Positions 1,255 to 45,513 of a stretch of 64,000 nt of DNA are shown here, one piece after another. Under the pieces are notes generated by a model. That model ran no database searches, had not been told where the DNA came from, and saw only the letters and a list, made by a program, of their open reading frames with translations. Made by a program: the position numbers and the translations under genes. Location of the stretch: assembly GCF_055900595.2 (NCBI RefSeq), contig NZ_CM148325.1; one strand, given 5' to 3'. The first letter of the stretch is position 1; the number at the start of each line of letters is the position of its first letter.

Positions 1255-1932
1255 CTACAACAAGGCAAGGTTTATGTACTTTCCGGTTGCCGCATTTTCT
1301 GGATTTTCTGCAAGCCAGGGAATTTCGCCCAGCAGCGGCGCGGGAATCATGCGGGTGAGCGTGGTCATATATTCAGCGTGACGTTTTCCAGGAGGCGTGA
1401 CATCATTCGCCACCCAACCCGCCAGAGTCAGTCCGGCGTGTTGTATTGCCTGTGCCGTCAACATCGCGTGATTAATACAGCCGAGTTTCACACCAACTAC
1501 CAGTATCACCGGCAGTTGTTCCTGTGTTACCCAATCCGCAAAAGTGAAAGTGTCAGAAAGCGGCGTAAACCAGCCGCCAGCACCTTCCACTAACACCCAG
1601 TCAGCCTGTTGTTCAAGCGCGCGTAATCCGGCGCTCATTACCAATGATTCTATCGGCCTGCCCTCTTGCGCGCTGATGATGTGCGGTGAAGTGGGTTCTG
1701 CGAAGGTGTAAGGATTTACCGTTGCGTAATCCAGCTGCAGGCTGCCGTTGTGCTGTAACGCCAGCGCGTCACTATTACGTAAGCCGTCCGGGGTCTTTTC
1801 GCTGCCAGAGGCGACCGGTTTATAACCTGCCGTCCGATAACCTGCTGCCTTCGCGGCTTGTAAAAGTGCACAACTGGCGACAGTTTTCCCCACTTCGGTA
1901 TCCGTTCCGGTGACAAAATAACGTTTACTCAC
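1255..1932 (-). CDS. bioD: Dethiobiotin synthetase
   Basis: ORF reads (ML)[28 protein letters not shown]; P-loop GTDTEVGKT; start probably the GTG two codons inside the track ORF; last gene of the bioBFCD operon. Confidence 0.9.
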
Positions 1933-2680
1933 GAGCAATCACTCCCAAAAAAAGATGATACGTCAGAGGATATCGCCCCTGTTGTTGCGGCCAGGCCAGT
2001 TGCAATCGCTGCAACTGCGAACGCGTTAATATTCGTGGGTAGCGCCCTTCATGAAGATGCGTGGCACCGATGCCTTTCAGCGAACGCATGGCACTGAGCG
2101 CATCAGCAAACCACAGCGTGATGGGCTGAATATGATGTTGATAATGCACGCTGTTCAGCGACTGTTCGATTTCATCTGGCGGTAAAAAGCGATTAGCATG
2201 CGGGCGCTCGTCCACCGCCTGCCACGCCTGATGCAATTCAGGGAGCGATCCCTGCACCAGCGTGGTAAACGCGACCACGCCTCCGGGGCGCACCACGCGA
2301 TACAGCTCGCGAAGTGCCGTGGATAAATTACCGCACCACTGCACCGCGAGATTGCTCCATGCAAGATCGAAGGTTGCAGTCGCTAACGGCAGGGATTCGA
2401 TATCTCCCGCCAGATAATGGTCTGCGGCATCCTTCTGGCGTGCCTGAACAAGCATTGGCGGCGAGAGATCTAACGCTGTCACCTGCGCGTGACGTTCCCG
2501 CCAGTGGCGACTCATCCAGCCTGGTCCACAACCCGCGTCCAGCACGTGGGTGTATTTACGCTGTGGGAGCATTGCCAGTAAGACGTCAGCACTCTGGCGC
2601 TGTAGATCCGCATGTTGCTCATAATGTGCGGCTGCCCGACCAAATGCCGCAGCAATGGCTTGTTTATTAACCGTTGCCAT
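1925..2680 (-). CDS. bioC: Malonyl-ACP O-methyltransferase
   Basis: From internal ATG (2678-2680) reads [27 protein letters not shown]...[11 protein letters not shown] (SAM-binding motif); operon context. Confidence 0.9.
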
Positions 2681-3821
2681 GCAGCACCTCCAGCAGACGG
2701 TCGATATCCTGCATTTCATGCGCGGCGGTTAGCGTTAAGCGCAGTCGCGCAGTACCAGCGGGTACGGTTGGCGGGCGAATCGCCGTGACCCAGCAGCCTT
2801 GCTGGCGCAGTTTTTCTGCCAGTTGTAACGCACGGCTGTTATCACCGACAATCAATGGCTGGATGGCGCTGTATGAATCAGCAAGCGTAAACGGCAAATC
2901 CTGTACTCCGGCACGAAAACGCGTAATGAGTGCCGCCAGTTTTTCGCGCCGTGCATCACCCTCATCACTGCGAATGACCGCCAGCGACGCACGTAATGCC
3001 TGCGCCTGAGCGGGCGGCATACTGGTGCTGTAAATAAGATGGCGGGCAAATTGCAGTAGATAATCCGCCACCGTATCGGAGCAAAGCACCGCTGCCCCGC
3101 TGACGCCAAATCCTTTGCCAAAAGTCACCACCAGAAGTTCCGGTTTCACCTGCTGTTGCCAGCAGCTACCGCGCCCCTGTTCACCGATCACGCCCGTGCC
3201 GTGGGCATCGTCGACCATCAACCAGCCGTTGTGCTGTTGCGTTACCTGCTGGATTTCCGCCAGTGGCGCACTATCGCCGTCCATGCTGAACACGCCTTCT
3301 GTCACCACCAGTTGCTGCCCCGGACAGGGGGAAGCAAGCAGTCGCGCCAGATGAGCGACATCGTTATGGGTAAAACGGCGAAGCTGCGACGGGCTTAAAC
3401 TGGCAGCTTCCAGCAATGAGGCGTGACTCAGCCGATCGGCAACAATACGGTCCTCTTTCGCCGTCATCGCGGTAATGACTGCCTGGTTAGCGGCAAAACC
3501 AGAGATAAACAGCAGTGCCCGCGAATAGCCCAGCCACTCGGCCAGTTCTTCTTCCAGCGCCTGATGCGCCACGCTATAACCGCTGACGTGACCGGAACCG
3601 CCGCTACCGACGCCAAATTGCTCCGCACCCTGCTTCCATGCACGGATGATGTGCGGATGATGACTTAAACCTAAATAATCGTTACTGGAAAAGTTCAGAT
3701 ACTGGCATTCATCCGCCACCAGCCAGCGTCCGGCCCCTTGCGCCACCGGATAACGGCGACGCAGGGCATCGGCAGCACGCCGCGCATCGAGCGCCGCGTT
3801 GATTTTCTCCTGCCAGCTCAT
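2667..3821 (-). CDS. bioF: 8-amino-7-oxononanoate synthase
   Basis: 384 aa ORF, PLP-dependent aminotransferase-like ([12 protein letters not shown]); between bioB and bioC with overlapping stops and starts. Confidence 0.9.
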
Positions 3822-4858
3822 AGTGCTGCCGCGTTGTAATATTCGTCAGTGTCCGGGGTCATCAGCGCCTGTTCAAGACGTTGCTGTTGTTCGTTATCGC
3901 CCGCCAGCACTGCGGTTTGCTGCGGATTTAACCCCAGTTTGCGGAACAGTTGCAGGTCTTTATCTTCTTCCGGATTCGGCGTGGTCAGCAATTTGCAACC
4001 GTAGAAAATCGAGTTTGCGCCAGCCATAAAGCACATCGCCTGAGTCTGTTCGTTCATCTGCTCGCGTCCGGCAGAAAGGCGCACGTAAGAGGTCGGCATC
4101 ATGATCCGCGCGACTGCAATAGTGCGAATAAAATCAAAGGCATCGACATCATCGTTATCTGCCAGTGGAGTGCCTTTCACCTTCACCAGCATGTTGATTG
4201 GTACGCTTTCCGGCGGCGTCGGCAGGTTTGCCAGTTGCAGCAATAATCCAGCGCGATCTTTTACCGTTTCGCCTAAACCTACAATGCCACCTGAACAGAC
4301 TTTGATCCCGGCATCACGCACTTTTTCCAGCGTGTCGAGACGTTCCTGATAAGTGCGTGTGGTGATGATATTGCCGTAAAACTCCGGCGAGGTGTCGAGG
4401 TTGTGGTTGTAGTAATCCAGCCCGGCATTCGCAAGGCGCTGCGCCTGAGATTCACTCAACGTGCCCAGCGTCATACACGCCTCCAGGCCCATCGCTTTTA
4501 CCCCCTGCACCATCTGTTCCAGGTACGGCATGTCGCGTTCGTGGGGATTCTTCCACGCCGCGCCCATACAGAAACGTGTCGATCCCGCCGCTTTCGCTTT
4601 TCGCGCCGACTCCAATACCTGTTCAACTTCCATCAACCGCTCAGCTTCCAGTCCGGTTTTATAACGCGAGCTTTGCGGGCAGTATTTGCAATCTTCCGGA
4701 CAAGCTCCGGTTTTAATTGACAGCAAAGTACTGACCTGCACCTGACGAGGATCGAAATGCTGACGATGCACCTGCTGCGCTTCAAACAGCAGATCCAGCA
4801 ACGGTTTTTCAAATAATTCTGTGACTTGCGACAATGTCCAGCGTGGGCGGTTAGCCAT
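3818..4858 (-). CDS. bioB: Biotin synthase (radical SAM)
   Basis: 346 aa; [11 protein letters not shown] radical-SAM cysteine motif; divergent from bioA across the bio operator. Confidence 0.92.
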
Positions 4859-4900
4859 GGGGCTTCTCCAAAACGTGTTTTTTGTTGTTAATTCGGTGTA

Positions 4901-4940
4901 GACTTGTAAACCTAAATCTTTTCAATTTGGTTTACAAGTC
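4901..4940. promoter_or_regulatory. bio operator (BirA site) in the divergent bioA/bioBFCD promoter region
   Basis: Imperfect 40-bp palindrome GACTTGTAAACCTAAATCTTTTCAATTTGGTTTACAAGTC between the bioB and bioA starts. Confidence 0.8.
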
Positions 4941-4944
4941 GATT

Positions 4945-6234
4945 ATGACAACGGACGATCTTGCCTTTGACCAACGCCATATCTGGCACCCATACACATC
5001 CATGACCTCCCCGCTACCGGTTTATCCGGTGGCGAGCGCCGAAGGTTGCGAGCTGATTTTGTCTGACGGCAGACGCCTGATTGACGGTATGTCGTCCTGG
5101 TGGGCGGCAATCCACGGCTACAACCACCCGCAGCTCAATGCGGCAATGAAGTCGCAAATTGATGCCATGTCGCATGTGATGTTTGGCGGTATCACCCATG
5201 CGCCGGCCATCGAGCTATGCCGCAAACTGGTGGCGATGACGCCGCAACCGCTGGAGTGCGTTTTTCTCGCGGACTCCGGCTCCGTAGCGGTGGAAGTGGC
5301 GATGAAAATGGCGTTGCAGTACTGGCAAGCCAAAGGCGAAGCGCGCCAGCGTTTTCTGACCTTCCGCAATGGTTATCATGGCGATACCTTTGGCGCGATG
5401 TCGGTGTGCGATCCAGACAACTCAATGCACAGCCTGTGGAAAGGCTATCTGCCAGAAAACCTGTTTGCTCCCGCGCCGCAAAGCCGCATGGATGGCGAAT
5501 GGGATGAACGCGATATGGTGGGCTTCGCACGTCTGATGGCGGCGCATCGTCATGAAATCGCGGCGGTGATCATTGAACCGATTGTTCAGGGCGCTGGCGG
5601 AATGCGCATGTACCATCCGGAATGGTTAAAACGAATCCGCAAAATGTGCGTTCGTGAAGGTATCTTGCTGATTGCCGACGAGATAGCCACCGGATTTGGT
5701 CGTACCGGCAAACTGTTTGCCTGCGAACATGCAGAAATTGCGCCGGACATTTTATGCCTCGGTAAAGCCTTAACCGGCGGTACGATGACCCTTTCCGCCA
5801 CGCTCACTACGCGCGAAGTGGCTGAAACTATCAGCAACGGCGAAGCCGGATGCTTTATGCACGGGCCAACCTTTATGGGCAATCCGCTGGCCTGCGCGGC
5901 AGCAAACGCCAGCCTGGCCATTATCGAATCTGGCGACTGGCAGCAGCAGGTAGCGACTATTGAAGCACAACTGCGCGAGCAACTGGCTCCTGCCCGTGAC
6001 GCCGAAATGGTTGCCGATGTGCGCGTGCTGGGAGCGATTGGCGTGGTCGAAACCACTCGTCCGGTGAATATGGCTGCGCTGCAAAAATTCTTTGTCGAAC
6101 AGGGTGTCTGGATCCGACCTTTTGGCAAGCTGATTTACCTGATGCCACCCTATATCATTCACCCGCAACAGTTGCAGCGCCTGACCGCAGCGGTTAATTG
6201 CGCGGTGCAGGATGAAACATTTTTTTGCCAATAA
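4945..6234 (+). CDS. bioA: Adenosylmethionine-8-amino-7-oxononanoate aminotransferase
   Basis: From ATG 4945 reads [25 protein letters not shown], 429 aa; the track ORF start at 4882 lies inside the operator and is unlikely; class III aminotransferase motifs. Confidence 0.9.
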
Positions 6235-6292
6235 CGAGCAGTCAGCGTGAGGTTTTCTGGCTACACTTTCTGCAAACAAGAAAGGAGGGTTC

Positions 6293-6769
6293 ATGAAACT
6301 CATTAGTAATGATCTGCGCGATGGCGATAAGCTGCCGCATCGCCATGTCTTTAACGGCATGGGTTACGATGGCGATAATATTTCGCCGCATCTGGCATGG
6401 GATGATGTTCCTGCGGGAACCAAAAGTTTTGTCGTCACCTGCTACGACCCGGATGCGCCAACTGGCTCTGGCTGGTGGCACTGGGTAGTTGTTAACTTAC
6501 CCGCTGATACCCGCGTATTACCGCAAGGGTTTGGCTCTGGTCTGGTAGCAATGCCAGACGGCGTTTTGCAGACGCGAACTGACTTTGGTAAAACCGGGTA
6601 CGATGGCGCAGCGCCGCCGAAGGGCGAAACTCATCGCTACATTTTTACCGTTCACGCGCTGGATGTAGAACGTATTGATGTCGATGAAGGTGCCAGTGGC
6701 GCGATGGTCGGGTTTAACGTCCATTTCCACTCTCTGGCAAGCGCCTCGATTACTGCGATGTTTAGTTAA
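6293..6769 (+). CDS. ybhB: PEBP/YbhB-family protein
   Basis: 158 aa, MKLISNDLRDGDKLPHRHVF...; located between bioA and the lambda attachment site as in K-12. Confidence 0.85.
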   Translation: MKLISNDLRDGDKLPHRHVFNGMGYDGDNISPHLAWDDVPAGTKSFVVTCYDPDAPTGSGWWHWVVVNLPADTRVLPQGFGSGLVAMPDGVLQTRTDFGKTGYDGAAPPKGETHRYIFTVHALDVERIDVDEGASGAMVGFNVHFHSLASASITAMFS

Positions 6770-7265: not shown

Positions 7266-7565
7266 CTACGATGCAAGAATCCATACCAATAAGCATCCGA
7301 TAATTGGGAAAGAAAAATCCAACAAACTTCCCACATCCCACACGCGTGGATCAAAACCTCCCCACCACGGCATGTTGACACGTTTCCCTTTCCCAAACTT
7401 TTCTATCCAGCGATATTCTGCCTGGGTGTGTTCACGCGCAATGAAGAACGTACAACCGGCTATCGCACCGTAAGCCCAGTTTCCGGTAAAAATACCAACC
7501 AGTACCTGAGCCGCAAAAGCGCAAAGCGAGTGAAGAAATGGAGTGACATCAATGCTCTTAATCAT
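7266..7565 (-). CDS. Small predicted inner-membrane protein, function unknown (accessory gene)
   Basis: 99 aa with hydrophobic segments ([27 protein letters not shown]); start overlaps the tailspike stop (ATGA); last gene before the att site. Confidence 0.5.
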
Positions 7566-9619
7566 GAAACTTCCCCATTGGTTGAAAATATGGCTCCTCC
7601 AACTCCAAGTGTATTTCGTGTTGTGCTCAACCTAAGAGGGCTGGAGTCAGAATTAGAATATCCTGTAGCAGAAATAAAAGATCCTCCACTAATAGTCAAC
7701 TGCGGAACATCGGCTATATCTGAATAAGTTCTGTCAGCAACAGTATTATTTATAGCCACATGTGATCCAAAAAAACTTCTTATTGTTTGGTTTTTAACTT
7801 TACTTCCTTCAATGGTTATCCTACTACCACAGTCAGCAATAAATCCTGAATCTGCATCCAGCGTTGCATTCATAAAAGAAGCTTCAGATCTCTCTACATC
7901 AATCCATCTAATATCTTTTGTGGGATTTGCACCAAATACATGACAAATATTAGAGTTAAACCTTACACCATCTTGGAGGTGCATTAATTTTTTTATATCT
8001 GTACCCCATAGCCTTGGAAAATTAACAGATGCTCCTGCATGGCAATCAAATCCCAGCTCAACCCCTGAGATATCTACAGCCTTTCCGGAAATAACAGCAC
8101 CAGTGTCTGCATTAACGGCTGTTCCACAATTGCGCATATCATTACCAGCAACATCAACACAACCCGCACCATCAATACGCACACCAAGTGCACATCCATA
8201 AAAACCTTTTTCAATATTTGGTTCAAGGACTTTACCACTTGTTTCTGCATCACTTTCTTCAACGTCATGTCGTCTTGCATCAACATATGCTGTATGAATG
8301 CACGTTAATCCACGATATGAGCAATGTATAGTTTTATGGTCGCGTATATTAACATTTGAACCATCTCTTACATTCCATCCTATATAACAATAGCTTGCAC
8401 TTGACCCCTGAAAATCTGCTTTAACATTATAAATACAATTAACTGACGCAACCGTACTCTCTGTGCACCGTTCAAACTTACTTACAGGCATTGATGCCTT
8501 GACATTATTTACCAGTTGCAGGGAAGAGTATCTGCTATAAGAAAAATCACATACGTAATACCCTTCTGGCATATATGCAGCAACACTTTCCTCATCAGGA
8601 GCACATCCGGTATGATATGCACTAATTTTTGCACCAAAACTACCATGAATTCCAACGTAGAACTTTCGAGCACCTGAATACGGATAGAAATTAAGTTCAG
8701 CTTTTTGAGTTACAATAAATGCACAAACATCGCTATCATCTCTATTTTCTTCAATCTGAATAGCAAATACAGGACTTTTTGCTGCATCGCAAATGTAAAA
8801 TAAATATTTGTATTCGTAATACGTCCTAACAGTTTTAGTAAACAAACTGGTATCAGAGAAAACCACTGAGTCTTCTGATATTATTTTAATCCATGATAAG
8901 TCACATCCTGCTGAAATTTCTATTTGCTCATTGAGCACAAAACCGGAAAGAATTTTAATTATGCAAAAATCAATGCCATTTTTCCATAGTGGACGCAGTG
9001 CAACAGCTGAGTTTAGAGCATCACTAATAGATTTAAAATTACCATATTCCCCAACTGTTATTGTGAATGCATACCTGGAATTAAATACTGCGGCACTCTC
9101 TCCAGAGTTAATAGCTGCAGATATCATGTCATAATTTGATATAAAATCATTTGGCGTGATTATTTCTGCGTTTTTATTGTGCTGTGTTCTAAGTTTTGAA
9201 TTTACATGAACACTTTTAACTGCAATACGGGAGTCGTCAACAAGTATTTCATTACCCTCTGTTGCTAACTCTTGTCTTAACTGATCCGGGTCATACTTCA
9301 GCACATTCGGAAAATAGAACTGCTGCACACCGTACGCATCATAAACAGCCATAGAATGGCCCTGTACAGTAACGAATTTGGCAATCTGTCCGTTATATAC
9401 CGGATATCCAGCAGCGTTAATGATGATTGGTTGCGAAACAGGAACGTGAGATCCATCTTCGTTCTCTACATAAACCTGAATCTGGTTTTCAGGATTTACA
9501 GGGGCAGTATCAATTTTACCGATATAAATTTTGCCATTGGCTACGGCTTTAAAAGAACGCGCCATAGTGAAGAGTTGCGAAGGCATACTCACTACAACAT
9601 TGGCTGTAATGTCTGTCAT
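7562..9619 (-). CDS. Tailspike protein with P22 gp9-like N-terminal head-binding domain and a different receptor-binding domain
   Basis: N-terminus [38 protein letters not shown]...VLKYDPDQ matches the P22 tailspike head-binding domain as I recall it; remaining ~570 aa unrelated to P22 endorhamnosidase. Confidence 0.85.
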
Positions 9620-9765: not shown

Positions 9766-10134
9766 ATGGGAAGAGATGACCCGCAATTTAATCTGCGGCT
9801 ACCTTACGAATTAAAGGAAAAACTAAAACAGCGAGCCAAATCCAATGGCCGCTCTCTTAATTCAGAATTAGTTCAGATAGTGACTGATGCTGTATCAAAG
9901 CCATCCAAAATTTCAGGCTATCGAGACGATGCGGAACGCATCGCTGATGAGCAGTCAGAGCTTGTTAAGAAGATGGTGTTTGATACGCTGAAGGATTTGT
10001 ACAAAAACCCACCTGATGGTGGGTTCCATTTATTAGTCTTGCTTTGTGGACGGTATAAGGGATGCATTTGCCTCTTTAGGCTTCAAGGTATACATCCCAC
10101 CATTAAATGGATCTACAGCAAGCCAACCAATTAA
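9766..10134 (+). CDS. mnt: Mnt-like ribbon-helix-helix repressor with ~40 aa C-terminal extension
   Basis: MGRDDPQFNLRLPYELKEKLKQRAKSNGRSLNSELVQIV...DAERIADEQSELVKKMVFDTLKDLYK closely follows P22 Mnt; ORF then continues antisense to the neighbouring lipoprotein gene. Confidence 0.75.
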   Translation: MGRDDPQFNLRLPYELKEKLKQRAKSNGRSLNSELVQIVTDAVSKPSKISGYRDDAERIADEQSELVKKMVFDTLKDLYKNPPDGGFHLLVLLCGRYKGCICLFRLQGIHPTIKWIYSKPTN

Positions 10135-22662: not shown

Positions 22663-24158
22663 CATCCAACTCCGCAAGGTATGTTGTAGCTTGAGTAATC
22701 AATCTCTTTAGGATCTTTGATGTCTCGCATCTGTATTGCATAACGCCTCATCATGTAGCCATAGCGAACAGCAGAAAGGATGTCGTCATTTAGCTTGACG
22801 ATCTTCCCGTTCTCATCGCGGTGATACAGGCGAAACTCTTCAAAGAATGGCTCGCAGGTGTTAAATACCTTGAAACGACCGTCGAGCATCATGTCGCGTA
22901 TCTCTGCTATCCCTGGTTCGACCGCATTACCTCCATCAGGCCATGTTGCATGATCTGGCAACATGTCGAACCCAGCGTCGGCGTATTGTTCCTTGAGCTG
23001 AGCGCCGCCTCCCTTTTCGTGCTGATGCCCGTCATGAGGCCAAGCCGTAGGGGTGTTTTTGCTCCATGCTTTAACAGCACTCCATGCCTCTGTCGCCTTC
23101 TTCTGTTTGGCCTTCCAGACGCGAGAAAGATAAATCACGTCCTCGTCTTTATCCCACCAAAGCTGGATATGTGCCTGTGGGTGATCCCATCCGAAGTCCA
23201 TTGCATTGATGACGTAGAAGTGATCAGGACACTCGAACGGCTGACACTTAATCGTCTCTTCCGGTATCTGGAAGATTCGACCGCTACCCATCGTAGGAAT
23301 ACCGCGAGCACGCGCCTCTCTCTCATGCTCGGGATAGGATGCGATGATTTGCTCTTTCTGCTCGTCGGTGTAGTGCTCAGCGTCATAGATGGTCATGTTG
23401 ACCACTTTCTGCGACTTGCTGGGATTCTTCAGGAACTTGGTAACAACGTCAGACATCCCCATCAGCGGGGTAAACGTCAGAATTGAGAATTGCCCGTATT
23501 TGTTGGTACGGGTAAGACCTTCGCCATAAATGCTGTATGGTGGCTCTTCGTCAAACCACACGCCGTGGATTGTGTCACCCTGCCAGCGAGCGCGGCCTTG
23601 CGAGTATGGTTTGAAGTAGCAGATTGAAATGCCATCTTCAACGCCATCGGCCGTGTGATGCTTAACCAGAAGATGATCAACAAGGTTCGGAAAGAAAGGA
23701 GACTTCTTCCAGCTAATGATGTCTTCTTTAGGTATGGAACCGTAGCCTGGCTCATCATTCTCTTCGATACGACCACACAGGATGCGTTGAGTCGTTTTGG
23801 TTACAGTCTCGTTTGTCTCGCCGCCAATCCAGAAGACAACAGGCTCATAGAAACGCTTACCTTTCCACTCACCGCCATATTTACCATCAGCAGGATAGCC
23901 TTTTGTGCCCGGATAACGCCCGGTAAGGTGAAACGCGACTTCAGCAGCACCAGTAAATGACTTACCAAGCTGGTTACCAGCCATAAAACATCGCTCTGGA
24001 TAGTCATGCCCGGCGTCGATGAACTCACGCTGTTTGCTGTATGGCGTAAATTCATATAGCAGGTGTGTGTTACGGTAGTTCTCTTCTTCTTCGAGTAGCT
24101 CGAGCAATTCGATTTGCTCTTCGTCGCTCAGGTTATCAAGAATCGCGTCCAGTTCCAC
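22662..24158 (-). CDS. Terminase large subunit (P22 gp2-like)
   Basis: 498 aa; [15 protein letters not shown] Walker-A-like ATPase motif. Confidence 0.85.
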
Positions 24159-24630
24159 GGTTGAATAGCTCCTTGATACGAGAGCGTCGCTTATCGCGAT
24201 CTCCCTTATCAGGTGTCACGTCTTCAACTTGCGACTGCTCTTTGAGGCCCAAATCACGGGCGATGATGTTAGCGTTGAGAAGGTCAGCAGCAGCGCCAGA
24301 GAATTTCTGGTCGTAGATGACCTGTTCTGCTCGCGTAACGACTTCAGATAAATCTTCTCGCAGGCGATATGTGCGCCATGTTTCAAGCGTCACATCAATG
24401 AACAGAGTGAGTCCGGTAATGGTCATCGCTCGCATCTTGGCGATAGGCTCTTGTATCACTTCACCCTGATACGAGAACGCCTTCATCTCCCATAGCGGGT
24501 TAGCTTCCACCCACTCGAAGTATTCACAACAAGCAGCCCACAGCGCCTCAGGCGATTCGAATTTAGGGTTTCGCCCATGACTACTGCGGGCCTCCCAAAA
24601 TCGGTTGCCCTTTGGTGCTGCCATATTCAT
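24136..24630 (-). CDS. Terminase small subunit (P22 gp3-like)
   Basis: 164 aa directly upstream of and overlapping the large terminase gene. Confidence 0.7.
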
Positions 24631-24647
24631 CTCACTTAGTTGTTATT

Positions 24648-25046
24648 TCAGGCTGATGACTCTTTCGCGCTTTCAATCAGTGACTGCTTCAGCAAGTAAC
24701 CTTCGAGCATCCAGATTTTGTTTACAGCATTCTGCCGGGCAATCTTCCGACCAATTTCTGCATCAAAGTTTTCCGGGCTTGCACAGGCACTCTCTCCGGT
24801 GACGGTGAAGCCATTCTTCAGCACCAGTACGCAGAAAGTGAGCAACTTCAATGGTGATAAATCACGATCGCCTTCTTCTGGTTTTTCCCTGCCACAATAT
24901 TCGTTGCTGGAAATGGCACCATTACGTCCATCATAAGCAGTAAAGTAATGCTCGCTTTTAATCACGTCTTCGATGTGCTGAGGAGTGATTCGCGGGGCTG
25001 TTTTGCCTTTCTCAACGATTTCTTTTTCGATTTGCTGGTCGCTCAT
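24648..25046 (-). CDS. Hypothetical phage protein (Gp49-like)
   Basis: 132 aa ORF upstream of the terminase genes; family call from memory only. Confidence 0.45.
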   Translation of the reverse strand: MSDQQIEKEIVEKGKTAPRITPQHIEDVIKSEHYFTAYDGRNGAISSNEYCGREKPEEGDRDLSPLKLLTFCVLVLKNGFTVTGESACASPENFDAEIGRKIARQNAVNKIWMLEGYLLKQSLIESAKESSA

Positions 25047-25334
25047 AATTATGACCCTGTAGAGTGGTTGCTTGATTAGGATGTCTTTCCATCAGTCCGC
25101 CACCACAAAGAATCTTTTTTGCCATAAGGCAGGAGGTTCATCTTTCAGTGGCTGCCGGTGTTATTTCCCCACTTACTGGCTTGGGTTGCTTCGTGGTACT
25201 GCCGTAACTGGTTGCCAAGAATAAATTCCGGTTTCATTATCAAGCCCACCCGTAGATGGGCTTTGTAATGGATAGCCGTTGCTCAGTTCTCGTAATGCTT
25301 TGATTTTTCCGATAACGCAGTTTTGCGTTTGCCA

Positions 25335-25856
25335 TCAGCACGCGATATCGAGAGTCAACTGCAGTTGCTCGCGCCAGTACTCAACATTTGCTTCAATAAC
25401 CGGCTTATCCCATCGCCAGCGAGCCATCTCTCTTGCCCCATTGCTGGCTTTTGATTTCCGGTCATCGCGAATGCGACATGCTTGCTCATATTTCTGCTGC
25501 TCAGTCAGTTCACCGCGAAGCAGACTATCAATGTGCAGGTCGCACCACACAGCAAAACGAGCATCACACCAACGGGCAAATGCAACTGAAAGTTTTGGAT
25601 GTAGCCACGTACCACCACCCCTGTCCTTTCGTGCCTTGCTGGTTTTTACATACCTCGATTGTGAGGGATGTAAAATTTGAGATTCTTTCCCGGTCAACGC
25701 TTCGTCTAAAGCACGAACGTATTCAAGCGTTTCTGCCAAACGCATCCAGTTATCAATGCGTTTCCCAAATCTCTCAGCAACACCTGTGACGTTGATCCAA
25801 CCATCAGTGTTGAAACTGACAATTTCACCTTTGTAATTAAGTGGCACGATATTCAT
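25335..25856 (-). CDS. KilA-N domain protein
   Basis: 173 aa; TWLHPKLSVAFARWCDARFAVW resembles the KilA-N/APSES DNA-binding motif. Confidence 0.6.
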   Translation of the reverse strand: MNIVPLNYKGEIVSFNTDGWINVTGVAERFGKRIDNWMRLAETLEYVRALDEALTGKESQILHPSQSRYVKTSKARKDRGGGTWLHPKLSVAFARWCDARFAVWCDLHIDSLLRGELTEQQKYEQACRIRDDRKSKASNGAREMARWRWDKPVIEANVEYWREQLQLTLDIAC

Positions 25857-26057
25857 AACGTTTACCTACCATTTGAAATGAACCTTTGCCGCATAGGAAA
25901 CCAGCCCACCGAGGCTCGCCAGCACTAACTGGTATCCTCAAAGGCCCATTCCAAAGGGGCAGGTTCGGTGTAAAAAACATGCGTTGCGGTACGCATTTAT
26001 TGCAAAAAGCCCCGCATCGCGAGGCTCATTAAATTGACTTTGTGATTTGCAAAAAAA

Positions 26058-26495
26058 TTATTTCAGGCATTGCGTCCTGATGTATTCCTGCAGGTAGTTA
26101 ACCTGCGCGGTTATCTTGTCGATTCCACTTCGGAGACGGTAATAATTGAGTTCAGCATCTGCTGTAAGTCTTGGGCTTTCTCCATCGCCCATGCCGCTGG
26201 CTCCGGTCTTTGACTTTGCACAGGAGGCGGCGACTTGCAGCCGCTTACGCCCAGCAGAAACATCATCACGGAGACTTTCGATAGTCGCGTTAGCATCAGC
26301 AAGCTCCTTTGTATATCTGGCATCGAGTTCTGCTACATCACGTTGACGCTTCTGCATATCAGCGATGATGGATGTGGCTTTATCGCGCTGGTCTTTGTAG
26401 GCGATGGCGTTATCACGGTAATGATTAACAGCCCATGACAGGCAGACGATGATGCAGATAACCAGAGCGGAGATAATCGCGGTGACTCTGCTCAT
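26058..26495 (-). CDS. Rz: Spanin inner-membrane subunit Rz
   Basis: [31 protein letters not shown] matches lambda Rz N-terminus; follows endolysin R. Confidence 0.85.
26111..26323 (-). CDS. Rz1: Spanin outer-membrane lipoprotein Rz1, embedded in Rz in another frame
   Basis: Internal ORF with lipobox LLGVSGC and proline-rich stretch [13 protein letters not shown]; true start probably the internal MM. Confidence 0.6.
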
Positions 26496-26968
26496 ACCTC
26501 AATCTCTCTGACCGTTCCGCCCTCTTCTTTGAATTTTGCAATCAGGCTGTCAGCCTTATGCTCGAACTGACCATAACCAGCCCCCGGCAGTGAAGCCCAG
26601 ATATTGCTGCAACGGTCGATAGCCTGACGGATATCACCGCGATCAATCATCGGTAAAGCGCCACGCTCTTTAATCTGCTGCAATGCCACAGCGTCCTGGC
26701 TTTTGGGAGAGAAGTCTTTCAGGCCAAGCTGCTTACGATAGGCATCCCACCAACGGGAAAGAAGCTGGTAACGTCCGGCTGCTGTTGATTTGAGTTTGGG
26801 GTTTAGCGTGACAAGTTTGCGAGGGTGATCGGAGTAATCAGTAAATAGCTCTCCGCCAACAATGACGTCATAACCATGATTTCTGGTTTTCTGACGTCCG
26901 TTATCTGTCCCCTCTGACCACGCCAGCATATCGAGGAACGCCTTACGTTGATTATTGATTTCCACCAT
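26492..26968 (-). CDS. R: Endolysin (lambda R lytic transglycosylase)
   Basis: 158 aa, [49 protein letters not shown], essentially lambda R. Confidence 0.92.
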
Positions 26969-27685: not shown

Positions 27686-28033
27686 CGCTCCGTTTCGTGG
27701 AGCTAACGGCGACGCTAGTACCGGTCTATGCGTCGCACCCTTGAGGGATTTACTAAGGCGACATGCCCGTTGTTACCCACTCAATTGGACCCTCCCCGTC
27801 GCCATCTGGGTCTAGTCAGGAATCGAACCTGCCGAGGGTACATTTGAATGGGTGCCCATTATTAATCACACCGGGCCAGTGCGCCGAATTTGGTAGCGGG
27901 GAGTCGGAAGACCCCGTGATTTTGGTTTCTTAGGCCGCCATCAACATCAAATCATCGTTTGCATTTATCTTTGTGGTCAGTTTCTAAAAACCCGCAAAGT
28001 CGCCAACTCTGACGAAAACTATCGTTGTGCTGC

Positions 28034-28101
28034 CACAACGATAAGAGCACTCGGTGCATTTAAGCCAAGCCCCATAAGGGAGAATGCTCTTACCTGTTGT
28101 G
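28034..28101 (-). ncRNA. Stem-loop B, second copy of the same stem motif
   Basis: CACAACGATAAGAGCA at 28034-28049 pairs with CTCTTACCTGTTGTG at 28087-28101. Confidence 0.3.
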
Positions 28102-28138
28102 CAAACGCAAAAAGCCCTGAGCTATTAACTCAGGGCTT
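28100..28138 (-). terminator. Rho-independent terminator just downstream of the late promoter
   Basis: AAAGCCCTGAGTTAATAGCTCAGGGCTTT hairpin followed by TTTTGCGTTTG on the transcribed strand. Confidence 0.6.
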
Positions 28139-28158
28139 TATTTAACGAGTGCATTTAT

Positions 28159-28201
28159 CCATCGTTGAGTCAAATTTACCCAACTTTATTCAATAAGTCA
28201 A
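28159..28201 (-). promoter_or_regulatory. Late promoter pR'-like (Q-dependent antitermination site)
   Basis: Reverse strand TTGACTTATTGAATAAAGTTGGGTAAATTTGACTCAACGATGG: TTGACT -35, 17 bp spacer, TAAATT -10, immediately downstream of Q. Confidence 0.7.
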
Positions 28202-44246: not shown

Positions 44247-44465
44247 ATGTACTTGACACTTCAGGAGTGGAACGCACGCCAGCGACGCCCAAGAAGCCTT
44301 GAAACAGTTCGTCGATGGGTACGCGAGTGCAGGATATTCCCTCCTCCGGTTAAGGATGGAAGAGAGTATCTGTTCCACGAATCAGCGGTAAAGGTTGACT
44401 TAAATCGACCAGTAACAGGTAGCCTTTTGAAGAGGATCAGAAATGGGAAGAAGGCGAAGTCATGA
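44247..44465 (+). CDS. xis: Excisionase Xis
   Basis: 72 aa MYLTLQEWNARQRRPRSLETVRRWVRECRIFPPPVKDGREYLFHESAVKVDLNRP, lambda Xis. Confidence 0.92.
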   Translation: MYLTLQEWNARQRRPRSLETVRRWVRECRIFPPPVKDGREYLFHESAVKVDLNRPVTGSLLKRIRNGKKAKS

Positions 44466-45513
44466 GCGCCGGGATTTACCCCCTAACCTTTATATAAGAA
44501 ACAATGGATATTACTGCTACAGGGACCCAAGGACGGGTAAAGAGTTTGGATTAGGCAGAGACAGGCGAATCGCAATCACTGAAGCCATACAGGCCAACAT
44601 TGAGTTATTTTCAGGACACAAACACAAGCCTCTGACAGCGAGAATCAACAGTGATAATTCCGTTACGTTACATTCATGGCTTGATCGCTACGAAAAAATC
44701 CTGGCCAGCAGAGGAATCAAGCAGAAGACACTCATAAATTACATGAGCAAAATTAAAGCAATAAGGAGGGGTCTGCCTGATGCTCCACTTGAAGACATCA
44801 CCACAAAAGAAATTGCGGCAATGCTCAATGGATACATAGACGAGGGCAAGGCGGCGTCAGCCAAGTTAATCAGATCAACACTGAGCGATGGATTCCGAGA
44901 GGCAATAGCTGAAGGCCATATAACAACAAACCCTGTCGCTGCCACTCGCGCAGCAAAATCAGAGGTAAGGAGATCAAGACTTACGGCTGACGAATACCTG
45001 AAAATTTATCAAGCAGCAGAATCATCACCATGTTGGCTCAGACTTGCAATGGAACTGGCTGTTGTTACCGGGCAACGAGTTGGTGATTTATGCGAAATGA
45101 AGTGGTCTGATATCGTAGATGGATATCTTTATGTCGAGCAAAGCAAAACAGGCGTAAAAATTGCCATCCCAACAGCATTGCATGTTGATGCTCTCGGAAT
45201 ATCAATGAAGGAAACACTTGATAAATGCAAAGAGATTCTTGGCGGAGAAACCATAATTGCATCTACTCGTCGCGAACCGCTTTCATCCGGCACAGTATCA
45301 AGGTATTTTATGCGCGCACGAAAAGCATCAGGTCTTTCCTTCGAAGGGGATCCGCCTACCTTTCACGAGTTGCGCAGTTTGTCTGCAAGACTCTATGAGA
45401 AGCAGATAAGCGATAAGTTTGCTCAACATCTTCTCGGGCATAAGTCGGACACCATGGCATCACAGTATCGTGATGACAGAGGCAGGGAGTGGGACAAAAT
45501 TGAAATCAAATAA
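44443..45513 (+). CDS. int: Tyrosine integrase Int
   Basis: 356 aa MGRRRSHERRDLPPNLYIRNNGYYCYRDPRTGKEFGLGRDRRIAITEAIQAN...; overlaps xis; catalytic R/HxxR/Y region (HELRSL...Y); lambda Int. Confidence 0.95.
   Translation: MGRRRSHERRDLPPNLYIRNNGYYCYRDPRTGKEFGLGRDRRIAITEAIQANIELFSGHKHKPLTARINSDNSVTLHSWLDRYEKILASRGIKQKTLINYMSKIKAIRRGLPDAPLEDITTKEIAAMLNGYIDEGKAASAKLIRSTLSDGFREAIAEGHITTNPVAATRAAKSEVRRSRLTADEYLKIYQAAESSPCWLRLAMELAVVTGQRVGDLCEMKWSDIVDGYLYVEQSKTGVKIAIPTALHVDALGISMKETLDKCKEILGGETIIASTRREPLSSGTVSRYFMRARKASGLSFEGDPPTFHELRSLSARLYEKQISDKFAQHLLGHKSDTMASQYRDDRGREWDKIEIK

What the first reader, a model, noticed from the sequence alone, without database searches (positions are those of the whole stretch)
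24648..25856. Two extra genes between the lysis cassette and terminase, one with a KilA-N domain
A 173 aa KilA-N domain protein and a 132 aa hypothetical protein separate Rz from the small terminase subunit. KilA-N proteins are frequently antirepressor-like or host-kill factors. Given the missing ant gene in the immI remnant, this is worth testing.
Basis: inference. Interest (0 to 1): 0.35.

Follow-up and report, generated by a model that had tools for sequence, protein, structure and literature searches.

The report
Anti-CBASS sponge and Rha-like prophage cassette
The two extra genes between the lysis and packaging genes of this P22-like E. coli prophage are real, but one is a member of the known Acb4 family of proteins that soak up bacterial immune signals, and the other is a DNA-binding protein that nothing here marks as an antirepressor.

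Summary
Both ORFs exist exactly as described, on the minus strand, between Rz (26058-26495) and the gp3-type small terminase (24136-24630) of a P22-like prophage at att-lambda.

The 132-aa "hypothetical" protein (24648-25046) is an Acb4-family protein. It matches Pfam PF13876 (E=8e-35) and is 96% identical to Sf6 gp66. Its AlphaFold model matches only the SPO1 Acb4 crystal structure. Acb4 proteins are tetrameric sponges that sequester CBASS cyclic-dinucleotide signals.

The 173-aa protein (25335-25856) combines KilA-N with a C-terminal ORF11CD3-like helical hairpin. It is the domain-swapped counterpart of P22 Rha (pRha + ORF11CD3), in the same slot.

The antirepressor idea is not supported:
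- The protein has no ANT/KilA-C/AntA/P22_AR domain.
- The gene lies in the late operon behind terminator-like hairpins.
- Mnt-only immI regions are common in P22-like phages.
- An 85%-identical copy coexists with an intact mnt-arc-ant region in Salmonella phage SF11.

In phage Huey the same slot holds a Tad2-like gene beside the Acb4 ortholog, so the slot is an accessory and anti-defence hot spot.

In passing: a conserved ~86-nt RNA hairpin (P22 sncRNA "P22F") precedes the KilA-N start. Elsewhere it precedes KilA-N, Rha or HNH-AP2 genes interchangeably.

The finding itself is ordinary and already known.

The parts
26058..26495 (-). Rz (i-spanin), last gene of the lysis cassette; Rz1 is embedded at 26111-26323. 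This is the upstream boundary of the slot.
   Evidence: PF03245 E=1.6e-35 and phrog_13 E=1.6e-72. The embedded ORF has a lipobox-like LLGVSGC.
26000..26031 (-). Terminator-like hairpin (GAGCCUCGC-GAU-GCGGGGCUU followed by UUUUGC) just after the Rz stop.
   Evidence: RNA fold. The homologous positions are annotated as a rho-independent terminator in HK544 and as a putative terminator in ES18.
25972..25996 (-). Second small hairpin (AUGCGU-ACCGCA-ACGCAU) followed by a U run.
   Evidence: Terminator scan and fold. It is conserved, with one compensatory pair, in alignment A3.
25871..25956 (-). Conserved ~86-nt extended RNA hairpin. It forms the 5' leader of the KilA-N gene and is the homologue of P22 sncRNA 'P22F'.
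   Evidence: Folding z-score -3.67 for 25857-26057. Consensus structure with 97-98% of cells paired, against 32-54% in slid controls, plus compensatory pairs. P22F sequence from PMC13397905. No Rfam match.
25335..25856 (-). 173-aa KilA-N (residues 7-114) plus ORF11CD3-like C-terminal helical hairpin (about residues 116-172). It is a full-length homologue of Pseudomonas phage D3 ORF11.
   Evidence: Pfam. 26 of 29 family members hit PF10549. hhalign against P22 Rha gives E=2.9e-4. AF2 pLDDT 88.6. 100% identical to the HK544 protein and 44% to D3 orf11.
25080..25205 (-). Conserved non-coding linker shared by P22 (downstream of ORF201), Sf6 (upstream of gene 66), HK544 and E212. It corresponds to the 3' part of P22 sncRNA 'P22G' and is the mosaic joint between the HK544-like and Sf6-like modules.
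   Evidence: Pairwise blastn and the P22G sequence. It contains only a 21-aa ORF.
24648..25046 (-). 132-aa Acb4-family (PF13876; N4 Gp49 / Sf6 gp66) putative cyclic-dinucleotide sponge.
   Evidence: Pfam E=8.1e-35. phmmer hit to 9E4W Acb4. 96% identity to Sf6 gp66 and 45% to N4 Acb4. AF2 pLDDT 91.7. Foldseek against PDB finds only 9E4W (prob 1.0, TM 0.63-0.72).
24684..24695 (-). Mosaic junction (Sf6-like to P22-like) inside the 3' end of the Acb4 gene. It replaces the Sf6 C-terminus KLSEQ with SLIESAKESSA.
   Evidence: blastn module boundaries and the protein alignment.
24136..24630 (-). Small terminase subunit (P22 gp3 type); downstream boundary of the slot.
   Evidence: PF16677 E=3.6e-33 and phrog_606. 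97% nucleotide identity to P22.

Best explanation
The interval is the variable accessory slot that P22-like and other lambdoid phages carry between the lysis cassette and the packaging genes. Here it holds two independent cassettes, joined by recombination at conserved linkers: an HK544-like module, an Sf6-like module and a P22-like module.

Cassette 1 (24648-25046) is an Acb4-family protein. By homology it most likely forms a homotetramer whose inter-protomer pockets sequester CBASS cyclic-dinucleotide signals (3'3'-cGAMP; for homologues from Gram-negative phages also 3'3'-cAA and 2'3'-cAA). The CBASS effectors then stay inactive while the induced phage completes its late phase.

Cassette 2 (25335-25856) is a KilA-N + ORF11CD3 protein of the domain-shuffling 'Bro network'. 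It is the architectural and positional counterpart of P22 Rha. It most likely acts as an oligomeric sequence-specific DNA-binding regulator made with the late genes, under a conserved structured 5' leader. It is not an Ant-type antirepressor.

Shown here: the gene models, family membership, fold match, mosaic borders, shared C-terminal domain, shared leader, and coexistence with ant in a relative. Inferred: tetramer formation, ligand binding and specificity, late-operon expression, and DNA binding and its target.
For: Acb4:
- PF13876 at E=8.1e-35.
- Chang et al. (bioRxiv 10.1101/2024.12.30.630793) define the Acb4 family as PF13876. They show that SPO1 Acb4 is a tetrameric 3'3'-cGAMP sponge and that 8 of 8 tested homologues bind 3'3'-cGAMP.
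- Their Table S3 lists Sf6 gp66, which is 96% identical to the window protein.
- N4 Acb4 (45% identical) is experimentally active (PMC12657230).
- The AF2 model (pLDDT 91.7) matches only 9E4W in the PDB.
- The nucleobase-pocket residues F48, F62 and I66 are conserved as F80, F94 and I98.
- In phage Huey the 97.6%-identical orthologue lies next to a Tad2-like gene (PF11195 E=1.7e-24; PDB Tad2 E~1e-16) in the same slot.

KilA-N protein:
- Pfam match.
- The C-terminal domain is shared with Rha.
- The AF2 model shows a KilA-N fold plus a two-helix hairpin; the best PDB match is the APSES-DNA complex 4UX5, though weak.
- It occupies the same slot and has the same upstream leader as P22 and ES18 rha.
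- The full-length family is conserved into Pseudomonas. There one copy sits divergent from an S24 repressor, a position typical of regulators.
Against: - No experiment exists on this protein or, as far as the texts read show, on the Sf6 gp66 subclade. The eight tested homologues are not named in the text I could read.
- Only 3 of the 10 SPO1 ligand-contact residues are identical (K36>L, E49>T, V56>C, Y57>A, N63>D, T70>I, K81>M), so the ligand could differ.
- The tetramer could not be modelled.
- The protein carries a 28-residue low-confidence insertion and an altered C-terminal tail.
- For the KilA-N protein, no target, partner or phenotype is known.
- Its own ORF11CD3 score is below the Pfam cut-off (16.2 against 25 bits).
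- Late-operon expression is inferred only from position and from the lack of a consensus promoter.
Confidence: 0.65

Rival explanations
1. One reading: the KilA-N protein is an antirepressor or host-kill factor that functionally replaces the ant gene missing from the immI remnant.
For: The window has an Mnt homologue but no Ant. KilA-N belongs to the same domain-shuffling network as ANT, AntA and P22_AR domains (PMC10111431). Some database records label the positional analogue rha as 'anti-repressor'. A Pseudomonas homologue lies next to an S24 repressor.
Against: No ANT/KilA-C, AntA, P22_AR or Bro-N domain was found. An 85%-identical copy coexists with an intact mnt-arc-ant region in phage SF11, and P22 itself has both Rha and Ant. 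Mnt-only immI regions are common. The gene is in the late operon behind terminator-like hairpins, with no promoter found on its strand. The 'anti-repressor' labels are untested annotation.
Confidence: 0.1
2. The KilA-N gene is essentially a selfish, exchangeable cassette, akin to a free-standing homing-endonuclease gene. It persists because it sits behind a shared leader that mediates its exchange or restrains its expression, and it contributes little to the phage.
For: The same ~100-nt leader precedes KilA-N (45), pRha (42) and HNH_3+AP2 homing-endonuclease-type genes (25) in 121 IMG/VR occurrences. An ORF always starts at a fixed distance from the leader. Nearly identical leaders precede different gene classes. 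From the Pfam family description as I recall it, the KilA-N fold has been likened to the nucleic-acid-binding modules of LAGLIDADG nucleases.
Against: No nuclease domain or motif is present in the 173-aa protein. The full-length architecture is conserved at 50-60% identity from Enterobacteria to Pseudomonas, which suggests selection on the protein. No 'empty' leader sites were seen. The downstream P22G-like linker is not a general 3' arm: it occurs in 22 of 38 KilA-N cases, 1 of 34 Rha cases and 0 of 20 HNH cases.
Confidence: 0.15
3. The KilA-N protein is a prophage-encoded defence factor, for example a BstA-like abortive-infection or exclusion protein acting against other phages.
For: [quoted passage not shown] The candidate PADLOC defence protein PDC-S22 matches the KilA-N domain at E=1.2e-5.
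Against: The PADLOC hit covers only the KilA-N domain. There is no BstA hit and no BstA-type C-terminal domain, and the protein is about half BstA's length. Its position in the late operon, with no promoter found, argues against expression in the lysogen.
Confidence: 0.07
4. The Acb4-family protein sequesters a different nucleotide signal (for example Thoeris gcADPR or a cyclic oligoadenylate), or has a non-sponge role, rather than acting against CBASS.
For: Seven of ten SPO1 contact residues differ. Ligand range varies among homologues, and Acb4 domains occur fused to Tad2 or Sequestin. [quoted passage not shown]
Against: All eight tested homologues bound 3'3'-cGAMP. The N4 and Ab09 Acb4 domains bind cyclic dinucleotides. 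The hydrophobic base-stacking residues are conserved.
Confidence: 0.15

Closest known systems
Acb4 (anti-CBASS 4) sponge family, PF13876: SPO1 Acb4 (PDB 9E4W), N4 Acb4 (named gp48 in PMC12657230; the Pfam family is named after N4 Gp49), Sf6 gp66
   Same: Pfam family, core fold and small size. It is phage-encoded. It is 96% identical to Sf6 gp66 and 45% to N4 Acb4. The aromatic and hydrophobic base-pocket residues are conserved. It lies in the same slot as in Sf6 and Huey.
   Different: Only about 27% identical to the SPO1 founder, and 7 of 10 contact residues differ. It has an N-terminal helical extension and a 28-residue insertion. A mosaic junction gives it a new C-terminal tail. It lies in the late operon of a temperate phage. 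It is untested.
P22 Rha (ORF201) and ES18 gp79. From my own knowledge (Henthorn & Friedman 1995, not readable here), these are known only as inhibitory to phage growth in IHF-deficient hosts; the ES18 record carries a matching note.
   Same: Same slot after Rz and the same conserved structured leader. P22 Rha shares the same C-terminal ORF11CD3 domain; ES18 gp79 has a different C-terminus.
   Different: The N-terminal DNA-binding domain is KilA-N rather than Phage_pRha. No direct BLASTP similarity (E=7.3).
Pseudomonas phage D3 ORF11 (namesake of the ORF11CD3 domain), HK620 p38 and Stx2 phage 1717 KilA-N protein
   Same: Full-length KilA-N + ORF11CD3 architecture (44% identity to D3 orf11). In phage 1717, whose record describes its KilA-N protein as similar to HK620p38, the gene follows Rz and the leader.
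   Different: D3 orf11 and the P. putida copies lie among head or tail genes, and P. aeruginosa prophage copies lie next to the repressor. None has a known function.
P22 Ant, KilAC/ANT-domain antirepressors and P1 KilA
   Same: Membership of the same domain-shuffling 'Bro network'. P1 KilA shares the KilA-N domain.
   Different: No ANT/KilA-C, AntA or P22_AR domain. Not under Mnt/Arc or SOS control. It coexists with a true ant in a relative.
BstA abortive-infection protein of prophage BTP1
   Same: N-terminal KilA-N-like DNA-binding domain; carried by a P22-like prophage.
   Different: Lacks the BstA C-terminal domain, lies at a different locus (late operon, not next to the repressor), and gives no PADLOC BstA hit.

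Membership tests
Acb4 (PF13876) viral sponge | Sequence match to PF13876 above Pfam's gathering score | tested here: met
   119.6 bits against a cut-off of 27, E=8.1e-35, profile positions 1-81 of 82. 96% identical to Sf6 gp66, which is listed in Table S3 of Chang et al..
Acb4 (PF13876) viral sponge | Protomer fold: three-stranded antiparallel sheet flanked by N-terminal helices and a long C-terminal helix, as in 9E4W | tested here: met
   AF2 model with pLDDT 91.7. Foldseek against PDB gives significant hits only to 9E4W chains: E=6.5e-4, prob 1.00, TM (target) 0.63-0.72.
Acb4 (PF13876) viral sponge | Homotetrameric pinwheel with ligand pockets at protomer interfaces | not testable with these tools
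   No multimer prediction was available. Testing needs AF-multimer/AF3 or SEC-MALS.
Acb4 (PF13876) viral sponge | Conservation of the SPO1 ligand-contact residues (K36, F48, E49, V56, Y57, F62, N63, I66, T70, K81) | tested here: inconclusive
   Mapped through alignment A1 to L68, F80, T81, C88, A89, F94, D95, I98, I102 and M113. Three are identical (F, F, I). Family members with divergent pockets still bind cGAMP.
Acb4 (PF13876) viral sponge | Binds and sequesters CBASS cyclic dinucleotides and rescues phage from CBASS | not testable with these tools
   Requires biochemistry or a phage challenge.
KilA-N domain proteins (PF04383) | KilA-N domain match above the gathering score | tested here: met
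   77.5 bits against 23.8, residues 7-114, profile 4-106 of 107. The best fold match is an APSES-DNA complex, but it is weak (E=0.19).
Rha-type late-region regulators (P22 ORF201) | Phage_pRha N-terminal domain (PF09669) | tested here: not met
   No pRha hit. P22 ORF201 has pRha at residues 48-135.
Rha-type late-region regulators (P22 ORF201) | ORF11CD3 C-terminal domain (PF10549) | tested here: inconclusive
   The protein's own hit is E=0.013, 16.2 bits, below the 25-bit cut-off. However, 26 of 29 full-length homologues hit (best E=1.9e-11). hhalign against P22 Rha residues 156-190 gives E=2.9e-4 at 40% probability. tblastn matches the C-terminus of phiAH14b Rha.
Rha-type late-region regulators (P22 ORF201) | Location after Rz, behind the conserved P22F-type leader | tested here: met
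Ant-type antirepressors (P22 Ant; KilAC/ANT proteins) | ANT/KilA-C, AntA or P22_AR_N/C domain | tested here: not met
   No such Pfam hit even at E<=1. tblastn with P22 Ant and with the EC332 KilAC antirepressor finds nothing in the window.
Ant-type antirepressors (P22 Ant; KilAC/ANT proteins) | Expression controlled by immI (Mnt/Arc/sar) or SOS, so that it can act on a repressed prophage | tested here: not met
   The gene lies 15 kb from the Mnt gene, inside the late operon. No promoter was found on its strand between Rz and the terminase.
Ant-type antirepressors (P22 Ant; KilAC/ANT proteins) | Binds and inactivates the CI/C2 repressor | not testable with these tools
   Needs a two-hybrid, pull-down or induction assay.
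BstA abortive-infection proteins | KilA-N-like N-terminal domain plus the conserved BstA C-terminal domain (~300 aa protein) | tested here: not met
   The PADLOC scan gives only PDC-S22, over the KilA-N domain, and no BstA model hit at E<=1. The protein is 173 aa.

The most novel reading that the evidence does not exclude
The KilA-N gene is one allele of a family of interchangeable late-operon cassettes in lambdoid phages: KilA-N, pRha, P22_AR_N-like and HNH-AP2 homing-endonuclease genes. Each is preceded, at a fixed distance, by the same conserved ~86-nt structured RNA hairpin, which is absent from Rfam and so far reported only as the P22 sncRNA 'P22F' of unknown function. This leader may be a dedicated control or exchange device. 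It could act as a processing or translation-control element that limits expression of potentially toxic DNA-binding or nuclease proteins. It could also be the homology or target site through which these genes replace one another. On that reading the region between lysis and packaging genes is a combined hot spot for mobile cassettes and anti-defence genes (Acb4, Tad2).
Probability: 0.3. Interest if true: 0.55.

Novelty: already known. Interest (0 to 1): 0.3.

Why it matters
For annotation, a gene widely labelled 'hypothetical' or 'Gp49 family' in E. coli, Shigella and Salmonella P22-like prophages can be read as an Acb4-type immune-signal sponge. Many temperate enterobacterial phages would then carry anti-CBASS capacity in their late operon, sometimes beside an anti-Thoeris Tad2 gene. 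This affects how prophage induction and phage therapy interact with CBASS, Thoeris and Panoptes-type immunity.

For the KilA-N gene, the analysis redirects experiments away from 'substitute antirepressor' and towards 'Rha-like late regulator or cassette'.

The shared structured leader gives a concrete handle on the long-standing puzzle of what Rha and other Bro-network genes do in lambdoid late regions. It is testable by end-mapping, RNase III mutants and leader-reporter fusions.

Tried and rejected
- Direct BLASTP of the KilA-N protein against P22 Rha gave no significant similarity (E=7.3). The relation only appears at profile level.
- PDB sequence search for the KilA-N protein gave nothing at E<=1.
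- Foldseek against PDB for the KilA-N model gave only weak APSES (4UX5, E=0.19), Bqt4 and coiled-coil matches, with no functional lead.
- NCBIfam gave no hit for either protein.
- PADLOC gave only a domain-level hit to the candidate PDC-S22, with no BstA hit and nothing for the Acb4-like protein.
- The sigma-70 scan found no promoter-like site on the minus strand between Rz and the terminase, so I dropped the idea that the genes are independently expressed morons.
- Rfam (E<=1) had no family for the leader or the linker.
- The 5' leader and the P22G-like linker do not form a general pair of flanking arms for cassette exchange. The linker follows only 22 of 38 KilA-N cases, 1 of 34 Rha cases and 0 of 20 HNH cases.
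- No 'empty' leader sites were found. All four apparent cases were truncated loci with an ORF starting at the usual distance.
- The leader is not an N-terminal coding extension, as some P22 ORF201 annotations imply. In the window an in-frame TAG lies four codons upstream of the ATG, and compensatory pairs favour RNA structure.
- The original rha paper (Henthorn & Friedman 1995, PMC177009) is not held. What I say about the Rha/IHF phenotype rests on my own knowledge and on the ES18 gp79 annotation note.
- The Sf6 experimental-evolution paper shows deletions only in the nin region, so it says nothing about whether gene 66 is dispensable.
- A literature search on DUF2560, another occupant of the slot, found no functional data.
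Full report
CONTEXT AND OBSERVATION

The window is E. coli chromosome carrying a P22-like (Lederbergvirus-type) prophage at att-lambda. The bio genes and ybhB lie at 1255-6769, the tailspike at 7562-9619 and the integrase at 44443-45513. The late operon is on the minus strand.

They lie between Rz (26058-26495, with Rz1 embedded) and the gp3-type small terminase (24136-24630). Both have strong family matches, so they are genes rather than chance ORFs. The 2.4-kb stretch is 100% identical in E. coli strains A3 and EC332. There RefSeq calls the products 'KilA-N domain-containing protein' and 'Gp49 family protein'. Only 4 of 5,426 complete E. coli genomes carry this exact combination, but the parts are very common.

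THE 132-AA GENE IS AN ACB4-FAMILY SPONGE

It matches Pfam PF13876 (N4 Gp49 / Sf6 gene 66) at E=8.1e-35. A plain sequence search of the PDB gives one meaningful hit, 9E4W 'anti-CBASS 4 (Acb4)' (E=0.0066).

Chang et al. (bioRxiv 10.1101/2024.12.30.630793) discovered Acb4 in Bacillus phage SPO1. They showed it to be a 96-aa protein that forms a tetrameric pinwheel sequestering four 3'3'-cGAMP molecules. They defined the family as PF13876, with 1,331 homologues. All eight purified homologues bound 3'3'-cGAMP, and those from phages of Gram-negative hosts also bound 3'3'-cAA. Their Table S3 lists Sf6 gp66, which is 96% identical to the window protein.

Later work supports the family's function:
- N4 Acb4, 45% identical here, is a working sponge that even triggers the Panoptes counter-defence (PMC12657230).
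- A Pseudomonas Acb4-Sequestin fusion binds cGAMP and 2'3'-cAA.
- Acb4 is often fused to Tad2 or Sequestin.

I tested the fold directly. An AlphaFold2 model built on a 33-sequence alignment has pLDDT 91.7. Its only significant PDB matches are the 9E4W chains (probability 1.0, TM 0.63-0.72 normalised to the target).

Mapping the ten SPO1 ligand contacts through the alignment shows three identical residues, the base-stacking and hydrophobic F48, F62 and I66. The polar and phosphate contacts differ. Family membership is therefore firm, but ligand preference is open.

Relative to SPO1 the protein has an N-terminal helical extension, shared with many proteobacterial members, and a 28-residue lower-confidence insertion. 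Its last 11 residues are new because a mosaic junction falls inside the gene's 3' end.

THE 173-AA GENE IS KILA-N PLUS AN ORF11CD3-LIKE DOMAIN

The KilA-N domain covers residues 7-114 (E=8.2e-22). The remaining ~55 residues hit a 'Rha-like' PHROG. They also match Pfam ORF11CD3 weakly in this protein (E=0.013) but clearly in 26 of 29 full-length homologues (best E=1.9e-11).

P22 ORF201/Rha, which occupies the same slot in P22, is Phage_pRha + ORF11CD3. A profile comparison aligns the shared motif (AS-SGR-L--W---KP-L) at E=2.9e-4. A Pseudomonas Rha-like protein matches residues 120-171 by tblastn. The protein is a full-length homologue (44% identity) of phage D3 ORF11, after which the domain is named, and is 100% identical to the HK544 protein.

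The AF2 model (pLDDT 88.6) shows the KilA-N fold followed by a long two-helix hairpin, a plausible oligomerisation module. Fold search gives only a weak match to an APSES-DNA complex, in line with the known KilA-N/APSES relationship.

The ~170-aa architecture is conserved at 50-60% identity into Pseudomonas, but its genomic position is not. It lies between tail genes in P. putida-type prophages and divergent from an S24 repressor in P. aeruginosa prophages. HK97-type phages carry KilA-N with a different C-terminus (P63C) after their lysis genes. This is the behaviour of the domain-shuffling 'Bro network' (PMC10111431).

THE ANTIREPRESSOR IDEA

The window does lack ant: there is an Mnt homologue at 9766-10005 and no Ant or KilAC homologue. 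However:
- The KilA-N protein has none of the domains that define known antirepressors.
- Mnt-only or empty 'ant morons' are frequent in P22-like phages (PMC2629481).
- Salmonella phage SF11 has an 85%-identical KilA-N gene in the same slot together with a complete sieA-mnt-arc-ant region. P22 likewise has both Rha and Ant.
- The gene follows two terminator-like hairpins, and no promoter was found on its strand. It is most simply read as part of the Q-antiterminated late transcript, made after induction rather than before it.

A BstA-like defence role was also considered. BstA has a KilA-N-like N-terminus. The PADLOC scan gives only a domain-level hit to a candidate protein and no BstA hit, and the BstA C-terminal domain is absent.

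THE SLOT AND ITS MOSAIC STRUCTURE

Pairwise comparisons split the interval into three modules:
- 24001-24695 is P22-like (97%).
- 24684-25212 is Sf6-like (97.5%).
- 25075-26600 is HK544-like (97.8%).

A ~130-bp non-coding linker (25080-25205) is shared by P22, Sf6, HK544 and E212 and serves as one joint. The other joint lies inside the Acb4 gene's 3' end.

The slot's occupants differ among relatives:
- P22: Rha + DUF2560.
- Sf6: gene 65, gp66 (Acb4), DUF2560 and gene 68.
- E212: KilA-N + DUF2560.
- Stx2 phage 1717 (its record cites similarity to HK620p38 and HK620p39): KilA-N plus a small gene.
- Phage Huey: a Tad2-like protein (PF11195 E=1.7e-24; PDB Tad2 E~1e-16) followed by the Acb4 orthologue and DUF2560.

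. Extra genes at this place have therefore been documented since the first P22-like genome papers. At least part of the slot is an anti-signalling locus.

MOST LIKELY MECHANISM

Shown: gene models, family assignments, fold match, shared domains, mosaic joints and the coexistence test.

Inferred: after induction, Q-modified RNA polymerase reads from the late promoter through the lysis genes and the terminator-like hairpins into both cassettes.

The Acb4-like protein would assemble as a tetramer and soak up the cyclic dinucleotides made by a host CBASS cyclase, so that effectors are not triggered before assembly and lysis finish. From my own knowledge, several CBASS systems are reported to be triggered by late structural proteins, so late expression would be compatible with this role. 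That link is inference.

The KilA-N/ORF11CD3 protein would bind DNA as an oligomer and act like Rha. Rha's only reported phenotype is inhibition of phage growth when IHF is missing (my own knowledge, plus the ES18 gp79 annotation). The target of the KilA-N protein is unknown.

NOTICED IN PASSING: A CONSERVED STRUCTURED LEADER

The 201 nt between Rz and the KilA-N start fold far better than shuffles (z=-3.67). They form a terminator-like hairpin, a small hairpin with a U run, and a long extended hairpin (25871-25956) ending about 12 nt before the start codon.

The long hairpin is the homologue of the P22 small RNA 'P22F', whose 3' end lies 6 nt from the rha start. The 25080-25205 linker corresponds to the 3' part of 'P22G' (PMC13397905). 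Rfam has no match.

Across 41 distinct hairpin sequences, 97.1% of cells form standard pairs, against 33-54% when the partners are slid. Compensatory changes occur at three pairs. One caveat applies: the sample was selected by an exact 20-nt apical pattern, and overall sequence identity is high (91%).

The gene that starts just after the hairpin varies: KilA-N types 45, pRha types 42, HNH_3+AP2 homing-endonuclease types 25, and a few others, two of which resemble the P22 antirepressor N-terminal domain by eye. An ORF always begins at the same distance. KilA-N and Rha cassettes mostly follow Rz. The HNH cassettes mostly follow Q or another, unidentified upstream gene; in the two annotated examples (RothC, CharmingMan) the cassette lies just after Q.

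This suggests either a shared expression-control device or a shared exchange site for a set of interchangeable cassettes. I could not discriminate between these.

VERDICT

The arrangement and both protein families are already known, and the Acb4 assignment is a useful re-annotation. The KilA-N protein's function remains open, but it points towards 'Rha-like' rather than 'Ant-like'. The shared leader is the only element with some novelty.

Noticed in passing
window 25871-25956 (-), with upstream hairpins at 25972-25996 and 26000-31: A conserved ~86-nt extended RNA hairpin lies immediately upstream of the KilA-N start codon. It is the homologue of P22 sncRNA 'P22F' and is not in Rfam. In at least 121 viral contigs it precedes, at a fixed distance, interchangeable KilA-N, pRha or HNH-AP2 genes. 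Covariation supports the structure.
   Followed up: yes
window 25080-25205 (-): A ~130-bp non-coding linker is shared by P22 (downstream of ORF201), Sf6 (upstream of gene 66), HK544 and E212. It corresponds to the 3' part of P22 sncRNA 'P22G' and acts as a mosaic joint. It contains only a 21-aa ORF (MNLLPYGKKDSLWWRTDGKTS; 27 aa in P22). It follows 22 of 38 KilA-N cassettes but almost no Rha or HNH cassettes.
   Followed up: partly
window 24684-24695: A recombination junction between Sf6-like and P22-like sequence falls inside the 3' end of the Acb4-family gene. The protein therefore ends ...LLKQSLIESAKESSA instead of Sf6's ...LLKQKLSEQ. The new tail is read from sequence that is intergenic in P22.
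   Followed up: yes
L146:1266-1766 (Escherichia phage Huey, PQ850609.1): In this relative the same slot after Rz carries a 166-aa Tad2-like (anti-Thoeris) protein just upstream of the 97.6%-identical Acb4 orthologue. Both are annotated there as 'anti-CRISPR protein'. The slot behaves as an anti-signalling island.
   Followed up: yes
L011-L014:5001-5522 (Pseudomonas aeruginosa prophages): A full-length homologue (54% identity) of the KilA-N/ORF11CD3 protein is the first or second gene of the operon divergent from an S24 (LexA/CI-type) repressor, a Cro-like position. In P. putida-type prophages the homologue lies between tail genes.
   Followed up: partly
window 27882-27984 (-): Weak sub-threshold tmRNA/tRNA-like Rfam hits lie between the Q gene and the holin gene. 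ARAGORN finds no tRNA anywhere in the window, whereas Sf6 and the E. coli A3 prophage carry tRNA-Asn and tRNA-Thr at this place. This may be a decayed tRNA remnant.
   Followed up: no
window 9766-10134 (+): The immI remnant encodes a 122-aa ORF. Its first ~80 residues are 76% identical to P22 Mnt (83 aa; Arc + Repressor_Mnt domains), followed by an unrelated extension. No arc or ant gene is present. The closest genome (EC332) annotates the equivalent as an incomplete Arc-family pseudogene.
   Followed up: partly
window 28111-28201 (-): A promoter-like site (TTGACT-17-TAAATT) is followed by a strong 13-bp terminator-like hairpin, and a second hairpin lies at 28019-28044, just downstream of the Q gene. 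This may be the late promoter and tR' from which the two genes of the finding would be transcribed. The basis is a consensus scan only.
   Followed up: no
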